Shown here piece by piece: positions 8,224 to 61,865 of a DNA stretch of 64,000 bases (the stretch's first letter is position 1; every line of letters starts with the position of its first letter). Position numbers and translations under genes: made by a program. Source of the DNA: a virus; IMG/VR virus record IMGVR_UViG_3300035696_001556, positions 109,495 through 173,494 of that record. One strand, 5' to 3'. The notes beneath the pieces are model-generated. The model searched no databases. It saw nothing but the letters and a program-made list of their open reading frames with translations, and was not told the DNA's origin.

Positions 8224-11200
8224 ATGTCTCCAAGTGTAGAACCTAACAGCGCAAGCATTTACGAAAATCTGAATTACGCTTATGACAAGGTAGTTTTCAA
8301 TCCAGGGAATCCTCCTCTTGGCAGTGAATTGAACACGCTTCAGGAGCAACTGGAGATACTCACACAGAAAACTGCCGGGAGCATGCCGTCAGGTTGGTTA
8401 AGCTACAGGCCGTTTTATACTTCGGCTACTTTGTCTAATAGCTTCTATACGCAAGATCCTTCTCAGCCAATACCCGAAGTAGCTATGGTAAATGGTTGGC
8501 CTATTTTTGTTACCAATACTAATACTGATTTATCTCAAATTAATCAGATAAACCTCAATGACTTTGAACTGAAATCAGGATCAAGAGTTGATGGAGTCGT
8601 CTTGGAAGTGTGGAGATCGCTATTAACTCCACAGGATACTAACGTTGCTTCGAAGCCTACGAATGTGAGCCAAGTAAGTACTATCTACTCAATATACATG
8701 TATGACGAAGATCTCGGATGGGCAGTTGGTGACAGAGGAACTATCCTTAAGACAGTCAATGGAGGACTTAACTGGAACTCAATACAGACACCTATTTCCG
8801 TTCTTTTTACCAGAGTTCAGTTTTTTGATCAGTCTTTGGGTTATGCCGTAGGTCAAAATGGATATGTAATCAAGACCACTAACGGAGGAGACTCCTGGTA
8901 TCTTCTTACTTCCGTTGTAAACGATAATCTTAATGATCTGGCTGTTATAGACCAGAACACTATTATCGCGGTCGGAGATAACGGAACAGTAATAAAGTCA
9001 ATAGACGGTACCAATTTTAATCTCATTGAAAGTACTTCTGGTGTTACCGCCAATTTAAATGCAGTACATTTTTATGATGACAGAATAGGCTGGGCTGCGG
9101 GTGACAACGGAACTTTCCTCATCACGATAAATGAAGGACAATCCTGGCAGTCACAAACTGTCATAGATGCCAGTACCAATACCGTTGTAACCACAAATCT
9201 GACTTCTATATCTTTCTTCAATTTGAATGATGGACTGGTAGTTGGAGAGAATGGCACTATCCTTAAGACGACAGATGGTGGATACCACTTTGTCAACATG
9301 TCAGGTAGAATCTACAACGGAACAGCATATCAAACTATAAACCAACTGCGTCCTGGTTTGGACAATGACATCAATCGTGTTTTTGTAAGAAGGGAATTCG
9401 CAAATAATTTCAATATCAGTGTTTATCCAGCTTCCATAGGAACATTTACGAATATCATTTACAGCATATCTCCTTCTAACTATCCTGATTCATTGGTTCT
9501 TCAGTGGCAGGGGGCTTTGGATGGAAGAAATTATATAAAGACACTTGATCTGGACGATTACGATACTGCAGATGATTTAGCTACAGCTGTTAATCAGATA
9601 CAGAGTCCATACTCTCCTACTGATGTAAGCTACCCAGATAATCTGAGAAAAACAACCAGAGTGTTTATAATGACAGTAGACTACGCAAATGCTGTTAAAC
9701 CTTCTGATTTTCGTCCAGCAAGCGGTTCGATCTCTTCTACCGGTACAACAGTAATAAGTTTCTCCGTGGAAGATAAAGCTTGGATCGTAGGTAATGATGG
9801 TCTTGTGGCCAGTACTAATAACAGTGGATCTAAGTGGTCACTAATCACAAATAATTATGGATTCGATCTATATGATGTTAACATGCAGGCCAACAATTAC
9901 GGGTGGGTAGTTGGATCTGCTGGCAGTATCCTTTTATATGATCCGACAAATATCCCAACTAATTTTGCACTGCAAAATACCGATCTTCCTCTTAAATCAA
10001 AAGGAAGAATATTCCCTGAAGGAAACATCCTTTCACAGTCTGATAGTTTCCTTAACGATAATATGATCGATCCAAATGTCGGAGTGGAAACTACAGACAG
10101 AGTCCAGATACAATATGCTATAAGAGTACTCGAGGGAGTAGATCCTTTCACATATCCTGAAGGTGGGCTAGGGGCAGAATACGTTTACAGTCTGGGTCCA
10201 AATGCTACGGGGCAGGACGCGGGTAGTTACACTTTTGAAAATATGGGAGATCAAAACGGAGATTACGGACTTTGGAGAGCTCGTTGCAGGAACACTTATG
10301 ATGGATGGTCTTGGGCTATCCCTATGTTTTTTGTTGCACGCAGAAATTCTTCACCGTTTGATCCAGATACGAATATCAACGGGTCGACTATCTATAACCT
10401 CAATGCTATAAGACCGGACGGACTGACGTACGAACAAATAACAGATGATGATATAACTGATTTGAGAAAGAAGATAAATATCCAATCTTATACGGCTCTG
10501 TTCGAAAAGAATTTTGATAAGCTTCTCGGCAACAGATTACAGACCAAACTGAGTGAGCAAGATACAAAAGGTACTCAGTATGGGACTAACATCCTTTCTG
10601 CAGATACATATGTAGGTACAGCCGCTTTAGGGAACCTAATAGCCGGAGATGTAACTTCCGAGGCCGTCTTGGAATCTTTTGTAAAAATACTTAATCCAAA
10701 TGGCGCAACCCCTTTAACGGATGCTGATTGGACTGTAGGGCCTACTATAAACTGCATCTACATGACTGATCCTGCTTATCATTCAGTCATAAGTTACATA
10801 AACGGTGCAGCAACTTCCCAGGTCATACCAGGATATTTTGAGGGATTAGGAACCAACACCATAAAATTCGATATTGGAAATTATACTCCTGCTCCAGGTG
10901 AACAGTACTTGATGACAGTTTGGAGAATAAACTATTCGAATAACGGTTTGACAAATATCCCGAATGAACCTCTAGGTATTTCGTATGTTCCTTCAACTGA
11001 GGATACGAGCATATTTTACCGTGGTATAAATGCTAATACAGTGAGTCAGATCATAGAATACCTCACAGCAAATGTTCCAGGTTATAACGACTATGCTATT
11101 TTCTATTCTGCTAAAACTGTTGGAACAACTGCGGCTGATATAAACCTTTACCAAAGTTCGGACATCTATGATCAGACTACTGATGGGTATAGTCAATCTT

Positions 11201-51975: not shown

Positions 51976-52004
51976 TTGACATTTTTCTTAAATCAGTGTA
52001 TATT
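51976..52004 (+). promoter_or_regulatory. sigma70-type promoter TTGACA-17-TATATT driving the ncRNA array
   Basis: Consensus -35 at 51976-51981 and -10 at 51999-52004; A-rich upstream element. Confidence 0.85.
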
Positions 52005-52057
52005 TAGTTTCAGCAGAAGAGGCAATCTCGTTTAACTAGGTCAGTCGCCCGTTCTTT

Positions 52058-52281
52058 GAAATAGTCGGTTTGCTCACATCGTGTGGCTTACATTATTATA
52101 GCAAGTAATAACACGATACTCAGTGCTCCCTGCAAATAGCAGGGGTGCAAGAGTGTCACACGCATGGAAGCCTACCGCCGTTTTATAGTGTCAACCCTAA
52201 AGTTGAAGTTATAAAATTTTAGAGCCTAAGGCGGCAAGGTTTTCATGCAAAGCAGCACAACTCGAGCAGGCCGATTGTTTC
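52058..52281 (+). ncRNA. Y-RNA-like unit 1 (multi-hairpin, non-tRNA cargo)
   Basis: 18-bp closing stem 52058-52075/52264-52281; scaffold motifs present; three internal hairpin domains. Confidence 0.8.
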
Positions 52282-52326
52282 TTTAAAACCGGAATACTGT
52301 ACCTCGTTTCAATAAGAATGATCTTT

Positions 52327-52457
52327 GAAATAGTCGGATTACTCGCATCGTCAGGCTTACATTCTATCACAGGGACAGAACGATGCTTCTACACCTGGCC
52401 GTGGGCTGGGTAAGTAGAGGCATCAAAGCATGACAACTTGAGTAGTCTGATTGTTTC
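52327..52457 (+). ncRNA. Y-RNA-like unit 2 (long-hairpin cargo)
   Basis: 18-bp closing stem 52327-52344/52440-52457; cargo GATGCTTCTAC-ACCTGGCC..GGCTGGGT-GTAGAGGCATC. Confidence 0.8.
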
Positions 52458-52523
52458 TTTAAAATAGAAATGCACCCCATCGTTCCCTGCGGGATGGTGG
52501 TAAGAAATTTGATCTTTGAAATC

Positions 52524-52674
52524 TGAGTCTTTGCTCGTACTGTTGAGGCATACATAGCTTTTTCAGCTCGTTTGGTCGAGCAATTTCCATATATTTCCAT
52601 ATAAGGAATAGGTAGCTGGTTCAAATCCGGCAGAAAGCACCAAAAATTGCATTGACGACTTGGGCAAAGACTCA
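52524..52674 (+). ncRNA. Y-RNA-like unit 3 carrying a linear tRNA-like domain (52557-52642) ending in ACCA
   Basis: 13-bp closing stem; acceptor GCTTTTT/AGAAAGC, D arm GCTC..GAGC, T arm GCTGG-TTCAAAT-CCGGC; 10-nt duplication in the anticodon arm. Confidence 0.85.
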
Positions 52675-52703
52675 CTTTTTAAAATAAATTCTTTGAAATA
52701 ACG

Positions 52704-52843
52704 TTTGGATTTTACGACCACTGTAGAGGCGTACATTGTGATTAGCTCAATTGGTAGAGCAATCGCTATTAAGCGATGGGTTCCGGAGTTCAAATCTCCG
52801 GACACATAAAATGACCGCATCAACGACTTTCGTAAAGTCCAAA
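52704..52843 (+). ncRNA. Y-RNA-like unit 4 carrying a degenerate linear tRNA-like domain (about 52736-52807)
   Basis: 14-bp closing stem; TAGCTCAATTGGTAGAGC D arm, ATCGC/GCGAT arm with 6-nt loop, CGGAG-TTCAAAT-CTCCG T arm; weak acceptor, no CCA. Confidence 0.85.
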
Positions 52844-52861
52844 TTTTTTAAAATCGATCTT

Positions 52862-53019
52862 TGAAATATTCGTGCTCGTACTGCCAGGGCATACATTTAG
52901 TTCGTTGGTTCAAATCCAACTATCTTCGCCAAACTGAAGATGTAGACCAGTGGTTAGGTCAATAGATCGCAAATCTATCATTAAAAATCTGCAATGACGA
53001 CTTGAGCACGGATGTTTCA
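52862..53019 (+). ncRNA. Y-RNA-like unit 5 carrying a circularly permuted tRNA (52899-52978)
   Basis: 16-bp closing stem; order is T arm, 3' acceptor TATCTTC-G-CCA, AACT linker, 5' acceptor GAAGATG, D arm, anticodon arm (GCA). Confidence 0.85.
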
Positions 53020-53039
53020 CCTTTACAAATAGTTCTTTG

Positions 53040-53211
53040 ACAGTGAGCAGAATGAGGTCACACTCCCACTATTGGGGCATACATATTTCGAGGTTCGACT
53101 CCTCATCCCCCGATTACCGGGGGAAAGTCCTACGGTAGGACACTTGTATTCGGAACAAGCAAGAAAAAAATTGCATCGATGACTTGAGTGTGATCTCTTT
53201 CGACTCACTGT
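53040..53211 (+). ncRNA. Y-RNA-like unit 6 carrying a circularly permuted tRNA (53090-53159)
   Basis: Interrupted 8+12-bp closing stem; GAGG-TTCGACT-CCTC, TCCCCCG-ATTAC-CGGGGGA, GTCC-TACGGTA-GGAC, CTTGT-ATTCGGA-ACAAG (TCG). Confidence 0.85.
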
Positions 53212-53224
53212 AAAAATAAAAAGG

Positions 53225-53256
53225 ATACCGGGGCAAACGTCTCGGTATTTTTTTTT
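53225..53256 (+). terminator. intrinsic terminator closing the ncRNA array
   Basis: ATACCGGGGC-AAAC-GTCTCGGTAT followed by a run of T. Confidence 0.85.
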
Positions 53257-53268
53257 GTAAAAAGTTCT

Positions 53269-53296
53269 TTAACATCGTTATGTCAAAAAGTATATT
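53269..53296 (+). promoter_or_regulatory. putative promoter TTAACA-16-TATATT for the Ubl / Ro60-like genes
   Basis: Same TATATT -10 as the other promoters in the window; 38 nt upstream of the Ubl ATG. Confidence 0.5.
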
Positions 53297-53334: not shown

Positions 53335-53622
53335 ATGAACGCAGTTACGAACCAAACCGTAGTCCACGTCCATTTCGACGGACGTTCCGATGACATCCCT
53401 CTGGATGTCCTTTTTCCTGTGACCCCGCCTGAGCTCTCTGCAGAGTTCGAGCGTAATGCCAGCGGTGTAGCCGCAGCAGGGTCCGCCTTCGTTCGTACAG
53501 TCAAAGAAGGTCTTGCAAATCATTACGACCGTCCGGTCAATGAGTTTGCGGACTACATCGTTGACTTCACCGAGAACCAGAACATCACGGTTCGTCCGAA
53601 GGCCGAGTTCGGTTCGAAGTAG
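53335..53622 (+). CDS. putative ubiquitin-like (beta-grasp) protein with C-terminal Gly-Ser-Lys
   Basis: 95 aa; strand-strand-helix-strand-strand pattern VHVHFDGRSDDI..VKEGLANHY..YIVD..ITVRPKAEFG; RBS AGGAGG; E1 and JAB genes nearby. Confidence 0.6.
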   Translation: MNAVTNQTVVHVHFDGRSDDIPLDVLFPVTPPELSAEFERNASGVAAAGSAFVRTVKEGLANHYDRPVNEFADYIVDFTENQNITVRPKAEFGSK

Positions 53623-53706: not shown

Positions 53707-55281
53707 ATGAATCAGCAACAGCGTCAGCCTACCCAGGAAGAAGACATCCGCCTGAAAATGTTAAATAGCTTTATGACTTGTCCCCACAGGGACACGGTAG
53801 AGCTAAACAAACTTCATGCTGAGTTGCAGGAAAAAGATCCTTTGTTCTATGTGCATCTTGCAGCATGGTATCAGAGGCACGGAGATCTCCGTGACCACAA
53901 AGAGATTTTCTCAGCACGTCTTATTACCGACATCTATCTGCCAAACAGAGAGGCCGGTCTTGCCCTCTTCCAGAAGCATCCTTTCTTCCTGAAGTTCAAG
54001 ATTTTCAACTTCATCAAGGGAAAAGATGTTAAGATACGTACGAAGACCGGTAAGAAAATCGTCGTCGAAATTAAAAACAAAAAGAAAACAGTCGACGAGG
54101 TCAAGATCGACAAAAAACATGTCGGACTTGACAAAAATATCCCTTCTTCTTTCTTAACCGAACTGTCACGGTACCTAAACTGGCTGGAAGCGAATCCGGA
54201 GCAGTTTGATACCGTAGCCATGAGGAATGCTTCGGATCTGAAGGCTCTTTATGTTAATCTCAGATTCAAGCATTCGAAGAGGACCAATGATATCCTCTTT
54301 GAGAAAAAGTATCCGAAGAATAGCAAAATGGCTTCTTTCAAAGCGATTATCGAAGCCAAAGATCCCACCAAGCAAGCTGAGATGATCGTAAAGGAGAAGA
54401 TCCCTTTTACGACTGCTATTGGTCTGGTCGAAGACCCGACCCCAGCTGTTTGGGTAGCACTTATCGATGCAATGAGTCCCCAGGAAGCCATTAACCACGT
54501 GGCCACCTTTGAGGAAAAAGGTCTTTTGGATAACGTGGCTACCAAAGACCTTATTATGAAGAAGCTCAAGAAAGCGGAGACGACCAAGACTGTTTCGGCT
54601 CTTAAATCTAAAGCAGCCACAGCTACGGGTCGTATCAAGAACGAAGAAGTCGTAAAACAGATGGATAACATCGCTGACAAGCAAATTAAAAAAGGCGGTG
54701 TTATCAGGGTTTCTACGGCTATCTGTGTCGATAAATCAGGTTCCATGACTAGGGCTATTCAGGTGGGCAAGAATGTCGCGGCTCTGGTTTCTGGAGCTAC
54801 GGAAGCACCGTTGCATGTGTTTGCTTTTGATCAAATGGTTTATCCAATAGTCTCCAGGGAACAAACTCTTACGGGATGGGAAGCGGCTTTCAGGCCTATT
54901 ATCGCCAATGGTAGGACCTGCATGAGTTCTTGTGCGGACTACCTTATCAAAAAGAACATCCTGGTGGAGCAGTTTGTCTTCATTACGGATGAAGGGGAAA
55001 CGGATTCTCCTACTTTTGCCTCCAAGTACCTGGAATACAAAACAAAATTTAATACCTCTCCGCATGTCGTTATTGTTCATGTCGAGGGAGGCGAGAGGTC
55101 GAGCACTTTGTTCTCGGATCGATTAAAGCAAGCAGGGATCGAGTTTGACACCTACACGCCGAAAGAAGCGGACTACTATTCTCTACCGGGGTTGATCCCA
55201 CTTCTCGCTCGGAAGACCAAACTCGATCTTCTTTACGAGATCATGGATACTCCTTTACCGGCAAGAAAAGTGTATGCTTAA
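53707..55281 (+). CDS. Ro60/TROVE-like protein: helical N-terminal domain plus C-terminal vWA domain
   Basis: 524 aa; DPLFYVHLAAWY..DLRD resembles TROVE N-termini; MIDAS DKSGSM..GRTC..FITDEGE; adjacent to Y-RNA-like array. Confidence 0.7.
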   Translation: MNQQQRQPTQEEDIRLKMLNSFMTCPHRDTVELNKLHAELQEKDPLFYVHLAAWYQRHGDLRDHKEIFSARLITDIYLPNREAGLALFQKHPFFLKFKIFNFIKGKDVKIRTKTGKKIVVEIKNKKKTVDEVKIDKKHVGLDKNIPSSFLTELSRYLNWLEANPEQFDTVAMRNASDLKALYVNLRFKHSKRTNDILFEKKYPKNSKMASFKAIIEAKDPTKQAEMIVKEKIPFTTAIGLVEDPTPAVWVALIDAMSPQEAINHVATFEEKGLLDNVATKDLIMKKLKKAETTKTVSALKSKAATATGRIKNEEVVKQMDNIADKQIKKGGVIRVSTAICVDKSGSMTRAIQVGKNVAALVSGATEAPLHVFAFDQMVYPIVSREQTLTGWEAAFRPIIANGRTCMSSCADYLIKKNILVEQFVFITDEGETDSPTFASKYLEYKTKFNTSPHVVIVHVEGGERSSTLFSDRLKQAGIEFDTYTPKEADYYSLPGLIPLLARKTKLDLLYEIMDTPLPARKVYA

Positions 55282-56041: not shown

Positions 56042-56893
56042 ATGAGCGACGATGTCTTAGAAATCATCCGTAAATTAGGTGAAACCGAAAACTCCCTCTC
56101 CAAGAGGGAATTCATTTCTCCGGTATACAAAAACAAATATGTAGTCACTCGAATAGATAAGATAGCCTACACATTCTCAATTCCCGAAAGTAAACCTGGG
56201 TGGTACAGGTTTCGTCCTGTAAATCGCAAAAAAGCGAAAATACTTGGCCCAAGTAGCTTCCAGGATACAGAGATTTATCAGAAATTACTTGAAAAAGTGA
56301 GGATAGTTTTAGTGCAAAGAGATGGGGATGTTTTCTACGGGGTGCCTTTTAAGACTAATCAACAAGGTTTGGACATTAAGATCCTCTATCCTGTCTATTT
56401 GGTTCTGGATGATATGGTACAAGATTTCGATGAGATTATCTGTCGCTACGATGGGGCTAATCTTTGGTATCAAGCCGTTGAAGCCAATAATGACCAAGCC
56501 AAGGTCAACTATCTTCGTGAGAGTTTGAAAGCTGCTGCCCTTCCCAAAAAACTAGCCTACTCGGGTTTACGCTTCGAAGACAAAATGGCTTATGCCATCC
56601 GGTGTGAAATTGATAAGAAAGTCCTGGAAAGAAATAAAGAATATCGTCTCAAGCATGCCGTAGAGCACGCTGGGGGTATCTTTAAATCTTTCACGGAAAA
56701 AGGGGATCATTTTAATGTGTCGTACGAAGTCGATGGAGAAAAATATACTTCCACTATCGCTAAAAACGATGAGCTGAAAGTATTGACTGCTGGGATCTGT
56801 CTGCAGAGTCAAGATCAAAAGTTTGATCTTACAAGTCTTATAAGCGTTATCCGTGAGGGGCAGCACAGGGATCTCATTCACCGTACAAGGTAA
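56042..56893 (+). CDS. putative divergent E2-like conjugating protein
   Basis: C-terminal helix, beta-meander, AGICL, then DLTSLISVI helix recalls the UBC G-x-I-C-L catalytic region; lacks HPN; context of Ubl, E1 and JAB. Confidence 0.45.
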   Translation: MSDDVLEIIRKLGETENSLSKREFISPVYKNKYVVTRIDKIAYTFSIPESKPGWYRFRPVNRKKAKILGPSSFQDTEIYQKLLEKVRIVLVQRDGDVFYGVPFKTNQQGLDIKILYPVYLVLDDMVQDFDEIICRYDGANLWYQAVEANNDQAKVNYLRESLKAAALPKKLAYSGLRFEDKMAYAIRCEIDKKVLERNKEYRLKHAVEHAGGIFKSFTEKGDHFNVSYEVDGEKYTSTIAKNDELKVLTAGICLQSQDQKFDLTSLISVIREGQHRDLIHRTR

Positions 56894-59888: not shown

Positions 59889-60723
59889 ACCTGTTATAAA
59901 AAATGGTAAAATTTTAAAATCTTTGGTTATTAAAATTTGTGATAGCTGTGGTAAAGAACTCGTAACAGATACCTATACAGCTAAAACTCAACGAAAGCAT
60001 AGATCTCATAACAATGATAAGGATTTTTGTTGGGGGTGTTCTCAAAAAAATAGAGTAATGCCAAAAGGAGAAAACTATGGAAATTTTATACACGGAATTA
60101 GTAATCAGGGTTATAGGAGAGTTACAGTGGATGGAGTACGTCAACAAGAGCACAAATACATATACGGTCTGAGTATAGGTAGAAAATTAGAAAATCAGGA
60201 ACAGGTTCATCATATAGATTTTAATAAATTAAACAACAACATAGAGAATCTTTACCTATGTAAGTCCCTTTCGGAGAATTTTAAATTAAACGTATCTATG
60301 CAAAAGTGTGGTTTTATTTTTTTGAATAAAAGAATATGGTTTGACTACAAAAAGAAAGTATATTCTTTAAATAAAAGTAATGTACCAGACATCAAAGAGC
60401 CCGTTGTTCTTTTACCCGCTTATGCTAAAAAACTTTATGTTAAGAAAAGCAGGGACACATTCTATGTCATGTACTTAAGAAAAAGACATGATTGGCAAAG
60501 ATATCACATTGCTGTAATGGAGGCCTTCATAGGTAGAAAATTTAAAAAAGGGGAAGGTGTTCACCACATAAATGGGAATACTTTGGATAATTCAATAAGA
60601 AATCTGTGTTTAGTAACAAATGCAGAGCATCAAAACGCACATAAATCTTTGTTGGCCTGCGCAGCAGAGCTGTTTAGAAGAGGTTTATTAACTTTCTCAA
60701 ATGGAGAGTACAAGTGTGGATAA
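59881..60723 (+). CDS. HNH homing endonuclease with two HNH domains
   Basis: EH..GRKL..VHHIDFNKLNNNIENL and YH..GRKF..VHHINGNTLDNSIRNL..H; N-terminal CxxC..CxxC. Confidence 0.85.
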   Translation: MLKPVIKNGKILKSLVIKICDSCGKELVTDTYTAKTQRKHRSHNNDKDFCWGCSQKNRVMPKGENYGNFIHGISNQGYRRVTVDGVRQQEHKYIYGLSIGRKLENQEQVHHIDFNKLNNNIENLYLCKSLSENFKLNVSMQKCGFIFLNKRIWFDYKKKVYSLNKSNVPDIKEPVVLLPAYAKKLYVKKSRDTFYVMYLRKRHDWQRYHIAVMEAFIGRKFKKGEGVHHINGNTLDNSIRNLCLVTNAEHQNAHKSLLACAAELFRRGLLTFSNGEYKCG

Positions 60724-61171
60724 AAGCATAATGGAAACTGAAGAAAAAGAAGAAGTTGTTCAGGAAGGTTTTACTGAGGAAGTCTGGTTCCTTTATGGTA
60801 TCAGGATCTTAAACTTTTTCTTTGGTTTCACTGTTTATCAGAACAAAGGAGAAGTGGCTTACGTAACCTTTGACTGGAAGAAAGCTTTCTCGTTTCTCCC
60901 TTTCATCAAAGACGCCAACAAATTCCTTATTGGGTTCTATCACACGCACCCGGGCGGTGACCCTGCTCCTAGCGGCACGGATACTTCTACGATGGGCACA
61001 TGGGTAAAAGCAATGGGAAAACCTATGCTAGCAGGAATTAAAAGCGGTAACCGTCAGAAATGCTATCTCTACAAGAGAGTCGCACCCAGATCCTCCGACA
61101 TAAAGTATAAGAGGATAAGCTCTACCTGGAACGGTAAGCTGTTTTGCGGTATATATACGGAGGGAAAATAA
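60701..61171 (+). CDS. JAB/MPN+ (Mov34) metallopeptidase
   Basis: Upstream EE plus JAMM motif GFYHTHPGGDPAPSGTD (HxH-x7-S-x2-D). Confidence 0.85.
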   Translation: MESTSVDKSIMETEEKEEVVQEGFTEEVWFLYGIRILNFFFGFTVYQNKGEVAYVTFDWKKAFSFLPFIKDANKFLIGFYHTHPGGDPAPSGTDTSTMGTWVKAMGKPMLAGIKSGNRQKCYLYKRVAPRSSDIKYKRISSTWNGKLFCGIYTEGK

Positions 61172-61220
61172 AGTTGTTGGATTCGTAGTTATTAAAAAGT
61201 ATATTAGTGCAGGAGGCATC

Positions 61221-61865
61221 GTGAACACACTCGTCCATGAAGAAGTCTACCGAGGAAAAAAGCTCCTCGATAAAATGGCTGTACAGCACCTAATAGTGTG
61301 TGGCTGCGGAGCAGTAGGCTCGAATCTTATCGATAATGCTGTACGACAGGGGTTCAAGAAGATAACGGTAATCGACTTCGACCGTATAGAGGACCACAAT
61401 AGACACACCCAGGTGTGGGATAAAAGACTCGTTGGATCCCTTAAGGCTGCGGCTATCAAAAACTATGTCTTTAACGTTATGAGCGATGCGAATGTAGAGG
61501 CTGTTACCAAGAAACTGGATGAGACCAATATCAAAAAGCTTTTCGTAACAGGAGGTATCGTTGTAGACGGGTTTGATAACTCTGCCAGCAGGAAGCTTGT
61601 TACCTCCTACTGTAAAGAGCATAAGATCACTTGTCTTCACGTAGGTCTTTATAAAGACTATGCTGAAATCATTTGGAACGAATACTACAAGCCGCCAGAG
61701 CCCTCTACGGCTGCGGATGTCTGTGAGTATCCCTTGGCCAGGAATGTCATTCTTATGGCTACTGCAGTGGCTACAGACGTCCTTATCAGGTATTTGGCCT
61801 CCGGAGTAAAAGAATGTTACATGATAACACTTAAGGATTTTAAGATCACGAAGATGGAAAGATAG
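61221..61865 (+). CDS. ThiF/E1-like ubiquitin-activating adenylyltransferase
   Basis: GCGAVGS, IDFDRIEDHNRHTQ, KA, VDGFDN..R; candidate thioester Cys in DVCEYP; GTG start with RBS AGGAGG. Confidence 0.9.
   Translation: MNTLVHEEVYRGKKLLDKMAVQHLIVCGCGAVGSNLIDNAVRQGFKKITVIDFDRIEDHNRHTQVWDKRLVGSLKAAAIKNYVFNVMSDANVEAVTKKLDETNIKKLFVTGGIVVDGFDNSASRKLVTSYCKEHKITCLHVGLYKDYAEIIWNEYYKPPEPSTAADVCEYPLARNVILMATAVATDVLIRYLASGVKECYMITLKDFKITKMER

What the first reader, a model, noticed from the sequence alone, without database searches (positions are those of the whole stretch)
52053..53211. Six-unit ncRNA array with a conserved, covarying scaffold and swappable cargo
Each unit has a 13-20-bp outer stem of differing sequence, a small internal loop with 3' ACTY, a 4-6-bp helix, a G-A juxtaposition, a 3-bp helix and an unpaired ACAT. 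The 5'/3' strands are: U1 GTGT-G-GCT/AGC-A-GCAC; U2 GTCA-G-GCT/AGC-A-TGAC; U3 TGTTGA-G-GCA/TGC-A-TTGACG; U4 TGTAGA-G-GCG/CGC-A-TCAACG; U5 TGCCAG-G-GCA/TGC-A-ATGACG; U6 TATTGG-G-GCA/TGC-A-TCGATG. Compensatory changes (GCT/AGC, GCA/TGC, GCG/CGC) and many G-U pairs indicate selection on plus-strand RNA structure. The invariant loop nucleotides suggest a protein-binding site. It does not match the classical Y-RNA bulged-helix sequence as I recall it, so this may be a new class of Ro-associated RNA.
Basis: seen in the sequence. Interest (0 to 1): 0.93.

Follow-up and report, generated by a model that had tools for sequence, protein, structure and literature searches.

The report
Phage Ro60-partner RNAs with tRNA mimics
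A huge phage encodes six small RNAs in a row that share one conserved 'handle' but carry different tRNA look-alikes or other hairpins, next to a very divergent relative of the RNA-binding ring protein Ro60; they are most likely an uncatalogued kind of Y RNA, found beside the same protein in many phages and some bacteria.

Summary
Observation confirmed. Six 131-224-nt units lie between a sigma70-like promoter and a terminator, each closing a stem / internal loop (3' ACUY) / helix / UACA handle. At least 188 non-redundant units from 70 loci share it, with compensatory changes at all 23 modelled pairs. It tracks one protein family whose predicted fold is Ro60 (TROVE-vWA, TM about 0.6) although Pfam misses it. 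Corrections: the G-A pair is clade-specific (76 G-A, 95 A-U/U-A); 'swappable' means evolutionary modularity, not shown active swapping; the handle lacks the Y-RNA GNCGAA motif and scores below Rfam YrlA and Y_RNA, but shares ACUUG and YUAC positions with the YrlA consensus, so it may be a diverged Y-RNA module. Four window units carry tRNA mimics (two linear, two circularly permuted); relatives add further permutations, and one carries 23S rRNA sarcin-ricin and L11-binding elements. A ubiquitin-like gene set travels with it. Best reading: trans-acting Y-RNA-like tethers or decoys for a divergent Ro60. Binding and expression are untested. No description found in searchable papers; this scan has noted what appears to be the same family on other genomes several times. 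New variant of a known kind.

The parts
51976..52004 (+). sigma70-like promoter (TTGACA-17-TATATT) ahead of the array
   Evidence: 11 of 12 consensus matches; similar site ahead of arrays in L002 and L022; consensus match only
52053..52061 (+). TCTTTGAAA boxA-like word, repeated at 52322, 52513, 52690, 52858 and (TCTTTGACA) 53034, one before each unit
   Evidence: 6 of the 7 + strand occurrences in the 173-kb contig are here; before 20/22 units of the closest clade but only 40/166 others; the boxA reading is from memory and note e1-5653475
52058..52281 (+). Unit 1 (224 nt): handle plus three non-tRNA hairpins (cargo 52089-52250)
   Evidence: CM 38.7 bits although not in the training set
52327..52457 (+). 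Unit 2 (131 nt): handle plus two non-tRNA hairpins (cargo 52358-52426)
52524..52674 (+). Unit 3 (151 nt): handle plus linear tRNA mimic 52557-52642 ending in ACCA, with an irregular anticodon arm
52703..52844 (+). Unit 4 (142 nt): handle plus linear tRNA mimic 52736-52808, 6-nt anticodon loop, mismatched acceptor, no CCA
   Evidence: Rfam tRNA 36.1 bits; not called by ARAGORN
52862..53019 (+). Unit 5 (158 nt): handle plus tRNA circularly permuted at the variable loop (T arm, acceptor closed by a loop holding G-CCA at 52928-52931, D arm, anticodon arm)
53040..53211 (+). Unit 6 (core 53054-53197): handle plus a second variable-loop-permuted tRNA mimic, closed acceptor without CCA
53225..53256 (+). 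Terminator-like hairpin followed by a T run
   Evidence: seen in sequence, -19.8 kcal/mol; conserved after arrays in L002, L004, L022; not listed by the scan
53335..53622 (+). 95-aa ubiquitin-like (beta-grasp) protein with conserved C-terminal (F/Y)G
   Evidence: AlphaFold pLDDT 74; structural matches mostly beta-grasp domains but Z at most 4.9; homologue in 87 of 112 Ro loci; G93 invariant
53707..55281 (+). 524-aa divergent Ro60/Rsr-like protein (helical ring plus vWA with intact MIDAS), proposed partner
   Evidence: AlphaFold pLDDT 86; Foldseek top 13 all Ro60/Rsr, E 6e-10 to 3e-7, TM 0.50-0.63; profile hits phage Ro60 9L5Y/9KOP, E 0.013; no Pfam TROVE
56042..56893 (+). 283-aa protein of unknown family that travels with the Ro gene
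   Evidence: homologue in 80 of 112 loci; no Pfam or Atlas hit
60701..61865 (+). JAB peptidase (60701-61171) and ThiF/E1-like enzyme (61221-61865)
   Evidence: Pfam Prok-JAB 7e-6, ThiF 5e-28; in 50 and 41 of 112 loci

Best explanation
The array encodes six trans-acting Y-RNA-like RNAs. One precursor runs from the promoter at 51976 to the terminator at 53225 and is cut in the A/U-rich spacers into 131-224-nt units (inferred). [quoted passage not shown] The far end displays a mimic of the translation apparatus, mostly the tRNA elbow in several wirings (shown), and so tethers or titrates tRNA/rRNA-recognising host proteins such as nucleases, PNPase or repair enzymes (inferred). I put about 0.8 on 'Ro-bound Y-RNA analogue' and about 0.5 on the phage using it mainly to blunt or repair host attack on tRNA and ribosomes rather than for RNA decay.
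For: Covariation: 87.3% of cells paired against 57.8 +/- 0.9 shuffled and 34-41% slid, all 23 pairs with two-sided changes; chosen on unpaired motifs only, 67/70 units still pair at least 8/10 against a mean of 6.15 for swapped partners. Linkage: in five 91-100% complete phage genomes outside the training set all 12 hits lie within about 3 kb of the Ro gene; 696 kb of other viral loci gave hits only on two Ro-bearing contigs; 14 kin phage records without Ro had none, and 2 of 4 with a distant Ro-like gene had hits within about 5 kb of it. Trans action: one clade has the array on the strand opposite to Ro, and one genome has a second cluster inside a tRNA array 230 kb away. The partner folds like Ro60. 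Cargo: 73 linear and 32 permuted tRNA mimics among 188 units; 64 anticodon-like loops keep U33 (51), purine 37 (62) and A38 (54) but show 32 different triplets, 18 with A34. One relative carries a sarcin-ricin-loop sequence plus 23S H42-44 (Rfam LSU 44.7 bits) just before a Tpt1/KptA gene. Known Y RNAs are modular, end-paired, Ro-adjacent and polycistronic (PMC4201824; 10.1101/312249); phage Ro60-Yrl dampens host PNPase (PMC12135203).
Against: The GNCGAAN0-1G motif thought to mediate Rsr binding is absent (0/6 window units, 3/188 overall). The N-terminal RNA-binding half of the protein did not align with a canonical Rsr at sequence level, so contact residues could not be compared. No RtcB, PNPase or RNA ligase link was established for this contig, which is only about 37% complete. 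Most Ro-negative kin records are fragments (7-55% complete). U1 and U2 cargo match nothing known. Family counts include related sequences and a few probable false positives.
Confidence: 0.78

Rival explanations
1. The handle is a processing or storage precursor: the stems are cut (RNase III/P-like) to release working tRNAs, and Ro acts only as chaperone.
For: rRNA-leader-like boxA word before each window unit; 32 of 73 linear cargos keep CCA near their end; U3 ends in ACCA and U5 keeps G-CCA in the acceptor loop; some relatives score 50-66 bits as tRNA; M. smegmatis YrlA is cut by RNase P and gains CCA (PMC4201824).
Against: ARAGORN calls none; U4 has a 6-nt loop and mismatched acceptor; many cargos lack an acceptor, are closed loops or are not tRNA-like; 18/64 anticodons start with A, rare in bacterial tRNAs (own knowledge); real tRNA genes beside handle units in G012 have no handle.
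Confidence: 0.1
2. The handle is bound by another gene product of the conserved cassette (the 283-aa protein, the Ubl or E1) or by a host protein, not by the Ro-like ring.
For: Ubl and the 283-aa gene co-occur in 87 and 80 of 112 loci; the canonical Ro motif is missing.
Against: Handle variants also sit near a more distant Ro-like subfamily; Ro60 folds are known binders of end-paired RNA stems; the handle echoes the YrlA consensus. Loci were collected through Ro, so linkage alone cannot single it out.
Confidence: 0.08
3. Cis-acting leader, attenuator or DNA-level repeat (mobile element, recombination cassette) for the downstream operon.
For: Usually directly upstream of the Ubl-Ro genes on the same strand (160 of 177 units within 3 kb).
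Against: A terminator and a second promoter-like site separate array and genes; opposite-strand and remote clusters exist; G-U outnumbers A-C 20:3 in the window (partly built into the scan) and + strand folds are always stronger; outer stems differ in sequence between units.
Confidence: 0.04

Closest known systems
Bacterial and mycobacteriophage YrlA/YrlB Y RNAs with Rsr (Rfam RF02553; PMC4201824; bioRxiv 10.1101/312249)
   Same: Beside a Ro60-fold gene; end-paired stem plus effector module; tRNA-elbow mimicry; polycistronic; conserved UA after the inner helix and ACUUG on the 3' loop strand in the Rfam consensus; some relatives have the same T-acceptor-D module (31-46 bits on model positions 23-85).
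   Different: No GNCGAA motif; both strands of the handle conserved; no YrlA hit in this genome and the new model does not hit the ET08 YrlA locus; up to six or more units with several tRNA wirings plus non-tRNA and rRNA-like cargo; partner is 11-14% identical to solved Ro60s and missed by Pfam; neighbours are Ubl/E1/JAB instead of RtcB/RtcA.
Deinococcus Yrn1/Yrn2 and animal Y RNAs (Rfam RF00019)
   Same: Long terminal stem with both strands conserved; Yrn1 has D-anticodon-T order like U3/U4; several RNAs upstream of rsr (PMC4201824).
   Different: No RF00019 match at the units; no GGUCCGA bulged helix.
Thermus phage phiLo Ro60 with Yrl1/Yrl2 (PMC12135203; PDB 9KOP, 9L5Y)
   Same: Phage-encoded Ro60 ring with upstream RNAs; nearest solved sequence.
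   Different: Two short CGAA-motif RNAs; 13-14% identity; no array of tRNA mimics or Ubl cassette described.
Nidhogg Asgard-archaeal viruses (bioRxiv 10.1101/2021.07.29.454249)
   Same: Viral Ro60 and ThiF/E1 genes in one genome.
   Different: A recognisable TROVE protein; no RNA partner or operon described; relation to this clade not tested.

Membership tests
Y RNA (functional class) | Encoded near a Ro60 orthologue | tested here: met
Y RNA (functional class) | Long stem formed by pairing of 5' and 3' ends | tested here: met
Y RNA (functional class) | Variable distal effector module, tRNA-like in at least one RNA of the locus | tested here: met
Y RNA (functional class) | 5' Ro-binding motif GNCGAAN0-1G / GGUCCGA | tested here: not met
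   0 of 6 window units, 3 of 188 family units
Y RNA (functional class) | Expressed and bound by the Ro60 protein | not testable with these tools
YrlA (RF02553) | Full-length match above gathering score 69 | tested here: not met
   no hit in G000 or the region; relatives reach at most 46 bits, cargo only; the divergent control ET08 YrlA also scores only 37.4, so the threshold is strict
YrlA (RF02553) | tRNA permuted at the anticodon stem (stem-T-acceptor-D-stem) | tested here: not met
   window U5/U6 are permuted at the variable loop and keep their own anticodon arm; U3/U4 are linear; some relatives do have the YrlA wiring
YrlA (RF02553) | Conserved (Y)UA(Y) after the inner helix and 3' ACUUG in the consensus | tested here: inconclusive
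   present at equivalent positions, but short, and ET08 YrlA itself lacks the 3' ACUUG
Y_RNA (RF00019) | Covariance-model match | tested here: not met
tRNA genes | Intact cloverleaf with free 7-bp acceptor and 7-nt anticodon loop | tested here: not met
   ARAGORN none; Rfam tRNA only 36 and 32 bits
Ro60/Rsr (partner protein) | Helical TROVE ring plus vWA domain fold | tested here: met
Ro60/Rsr (partner protein) | MIDAS motif | tested here: met
   D342, S344, S346, T404, D428 invariant in 117 sequences
Ro60/Rsr (partner protein) | Pfam TROVE (PF05731) sequence match | tested here: not met
Ro60/Rsr (partner protein) | Conserved Y-RNA-contact residues | tested here: inconclusive
   only the C-terminal half aligned with ET08 Rsr

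The most novel reading that the evidence does not exclude
The array is a modular bait library: the Ro ring displays mimics of each translation target that host defences attack (tRNA anticodon loop, elbow, CCA end, and in a relative the sarcin-ricin loop plus GTPase centre), captures the attacking protein or factor, and the linked Ubl-E1-JAB set tags the captured protein or the particle. That would be an RNA-addressed protein-tagging system with no described precedent.
Probability: 0.2. Interest if true: 0.92.

Novelty: new variant of a known kind. Interest (0 to 1): 0.7.

Why it matters
What the tRNA-like module of bacterial Y RNAs does, and which proteins it recruits, is an open question (PMC4201824; 10.1101/312249). 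This family gives a natural experiment: one constant handle, at least five wirings of a tRNA, and non-tRNA and rRNA-like cargo, so the shared surface (the elbow) and the dispensable ones can be read off and tested. It also shows a large Ro60 clade (435 clusters at 50% identity with E below 1e-30) that Pfam misses, with its own RNA recognition code and a linked ubiquitin-like gene set, in jumbo phages and in bacterial chromosomes such as Dictyobacter alpinus.

Tried and rejected
Rfam at gathering and E-value level on the window: only tRNA; other hits were far below threshold. Ro + Ubl complex prediction gave 'no answer', score 0.02; it is no evidence either way. The 283-aa gene could not be placed, so I do not call it an E2. 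U1/U2 cargo against a 23S rRNA: no similarity above the antisense control (one search used the wrong strand and was redone). Short pattern scans of viral contigs were almost all chance matches. Kink-turn considered and dropped: a single G-A, often replaced by U-A or A-U. G-A as a Ro co-evolving marker dropped: G-A and U-A mix within single arrays. Four attempts to read key papers failed because they are not held (Sim et al. 2020 review, Burroughs and Aravind 2016 twice, Sim and Wolin 2018), so the novelty claim rests on ten searches of an incomplete library; large motif catalogues outside Rfam were not checked.

Full report
Setting. The window is the end of a 173,494-bp IMG/VR virus record estimated 37% complete; it encodes a major head protein whose closest relatives include 380-470-kb genomes, so it is a jumbo tailed phage. 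The host is unknown.

Observation. The six units are real and as described. They span 52058-52281, 52327-52457, 52524-52674, 52703-52844, 52862-53019 and 53054-53197 (to 53040-53211 with the extended stem). Each has an outer stem P1 of 12-18 contiguous pairs and unrelated sequence, a 4x4 internal loop with 3' ACUY, a 4-6-bp P2 (one mismatch in U4, two in U5), G opposite A, a 3-bp P3 and UACAU before the cargo. Folding z-scores are -5.1 to -9.0 and the + strand is always the more stable. A promoter-like site at 51976-52004 (11/12) and a hairpin plus T run at 53225-53256 bracket the array; a second promoter-like site at 53269 precedes the genes. A TCTTTGA(A/C)A word precedes every unit and is otherwise rare in the contig.

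The neighbour. The 524-aa ORF at 53707 has no Pfam TROVE hit, but a profile of 117 homologues finds phage Ro60 (E 0.013) and its AlphaFold model (pLDDT 86) matches Ro60/Rsr structures in the top 13 Foldseek rows, TM 0.50-0.63 at 11-14% identity. MIDAS residues are invariant. The clade is large and carries a conserved gene set: a beta-grasp-like small protein with C-terminal (F/Y)G in 87 of 112 loci, an unplaced 283-aa protein in 80, JAB in 50 and E1 in 41.

The family. Loci gathered through the protein hold the same handle. On 63 aligned units 87.3% of cells pair, against 57.8% shuffled and 34-41% slid; all 23 pairs show two-sided changes. Those units were picked partly by pairing, so I repeated the test choosing units by unpaired motifs only: 67 of 70 pair at least 8/10 in P1 with their own partner, against a mean of 6.15 when partners are swapped. 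A covariance model extends the family to more distant phages and to bacterial records (Chloroflexota including Dictyobacter alpinus, Myxococcota, Acidobacteriota); 37 of the 38 distant hits keep UAC and ACUY without any motif filter. A relaxed scan gives 188 non-redundant units in 70 loci, a few probably false. Family-wide constants are ACUY (followed by G in 150), UACA, a Watson-Crick P3 and a purine-pyrimidine pair four steps into P1 (175 of 188 G-C or A-U). The G-A is not constant: 76 G-A, 49 A-U, 46 U-A, mixed within arrays. The boxA-like word is clade-limited.

Linkage and mode. In five nearly complete phage genomes outside the training set all 12 hits lie within about 3 kb of the Ro gene. 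In five more, 9 of 11 hits do; the other two belong to a three-unit cluster inside a tRNA array 230 kb away in a genome that has Ro. 696 kb of unrelated viral loci gave hits only on two Ro-bearing contigs. Among 18 kin phage records, 14 without Ro (mostly fragments) had no hit; 2 of 4 with a distant Ro-like gene had handle-like units about 5 kb from it. One clade transcribes the array away from the Ro gene. Together this indicates trans-acting RNAs tied to the Ro clade, not a leader.

Cargo. U3 and U4 carry linear tRNA mimics, U5 and U6 tRNAs permuted at the variable loop, U1 and U2 other hairpins. Relatives add YrlA-type permutation at the anticodon stem, permutation before the D arm, and acceptor-less D-anticodon-T forms; 20 of 70 loci hold both linear and permuted forms. 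Anticodon-like loops keep tRNA loop shape but not a consistent triplet. Handles within an array are more alike across cargo classes (0.68) than handles with the same cargo class between arrays (0.58), and U3 and U5 share a near-identical handle with different wiring, while orthologous units in the close relative L002 keep their cargo type. So cargo is modular over evolutionary time; active swapping is not shown. After note e1-5378739 mentioned rRNA-like cargo in a related setting, I found one unit of this family (L098:10053-10308) with a sarcin-ricin-loop sequence and 23S H42-44 (Rfam LSU 44.7 bits, E 1.6e-12), directly before a Tpt1/KptA gene. U1/U2 cargo shows no 23S likeness.

Mechanism. 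Shown computationally: structure, modularity, linkage, Ro fold. Inferred: one precursor is processed to units; the handle binds the Ro ring; the distal mimic engages tRNA- or rRNA-recognising proteins. Precedent: Y RNA tethers Rsr to PNPase (PMC4201824), phage Ro60-Yrl dampens host PNPase (PMC12135203), and YrlA was proposed as a competitive inhibitor of an anticodon nuclease (PMC7790460). The breadth of mimics favours a tether or decoy for translation-targeting host factors, at about even odds against RNA decay or repair roles. The role of the Ubl set is open.

Comparison. It works like a Y RNA, but fails the sequence tests for YrlA and Y_RNA, and the new model ignores the ET08 YrlA locus. 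The Rfam YrlA consensus does have ACUUG on the 3' loop strand and CUAC after the inner helix, and YrlA's UA is conserved (10.1101/312249); ET08 YrlA lacks that ACUUG. Common origin is therefore plausible (about 0.5), not shown.

Novelty. Ten literature searches found no description of this handle, these arrays or the coupling to Ubl/E1/JAB; several key reviews were unavailable. Earlier notes of this scan describe what appears to be the same family on other genomes; they are not independent evidence. Verdict: real, uncatalogued, a new variant of the Ro60-Y RNA kind; interest 0.70.

Noticed in passing
L098:10053-10308 (+): Handle unit whose cargo holds a sarcin-ricin-loop sequence (10093) and the 23S L11-binding/GTPase centre H42-44 (10172-10254, Rfam LSU 44.7 bits); next gene is a Tpt1/KptA RNA 2'-phosphotransferase.
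   Followed up: partly
L211:6720-7295 (-) (G012): Three handle units interleaved with ordinary tRNA genes, 230 kb from that genome's Ro gene.
   Followed up: partly
window:52477-52500: A 10-bp stand-alone hairpin between units 2 and 3, also present in L002; possible processing or pause signal.
   Followed up: no
window:53335-53622 and 70 homologues: The small beta-grasp-like protein ends in a conserved (F/Y)G followed by 0-4 extra residues, which would need trimming by the JAB peptidase before E1 activation.
   Followed up: partly
window:47259-51419: 378-aa, 436-aa and two vWA genes upstream; the first two recur before the array in 8 and 16 related loci and a vWA gene near Ro in 7.
   Followed up: no
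L008:3530, L024:473, L026:3315, L029:142, L042:894, L058:3133, L111:553: A recurring non-tRNA cargo: a short A/U hairpin followed by a GC-rich GCCGGGCC...GCCCGGCA-type hairpin; no known match.
   Followed up: no
L013, L039, L065, L071, L078, L080, L101: The anticodon-like loop CUAUUAA (AUU triplet, A34) recurs in distant arrays.
   Followed up: no
L002:5100-5340: An insertion with inverted ends resembling an IS200/IS605-type end interrupts the array between the fifth and sixth units (resemblance from memory).
   Followed up: no
window:54022-54123 (Ro residues 106-139): A lysine-rich beta-hairpin inserted in the helical ring; about 40 residues in this phage clade but about 8 in several distant, mostly bacterial homologues.
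   Followed up: no
L293-L295 (G023, G025): A more distant Ro-like subfamily (open frames of about 500-660 aa, 53-65 bits) in kin phages has nearby units with a shorter handle that keeps UACA and, in G023, ACUC.
   Followed up: partly
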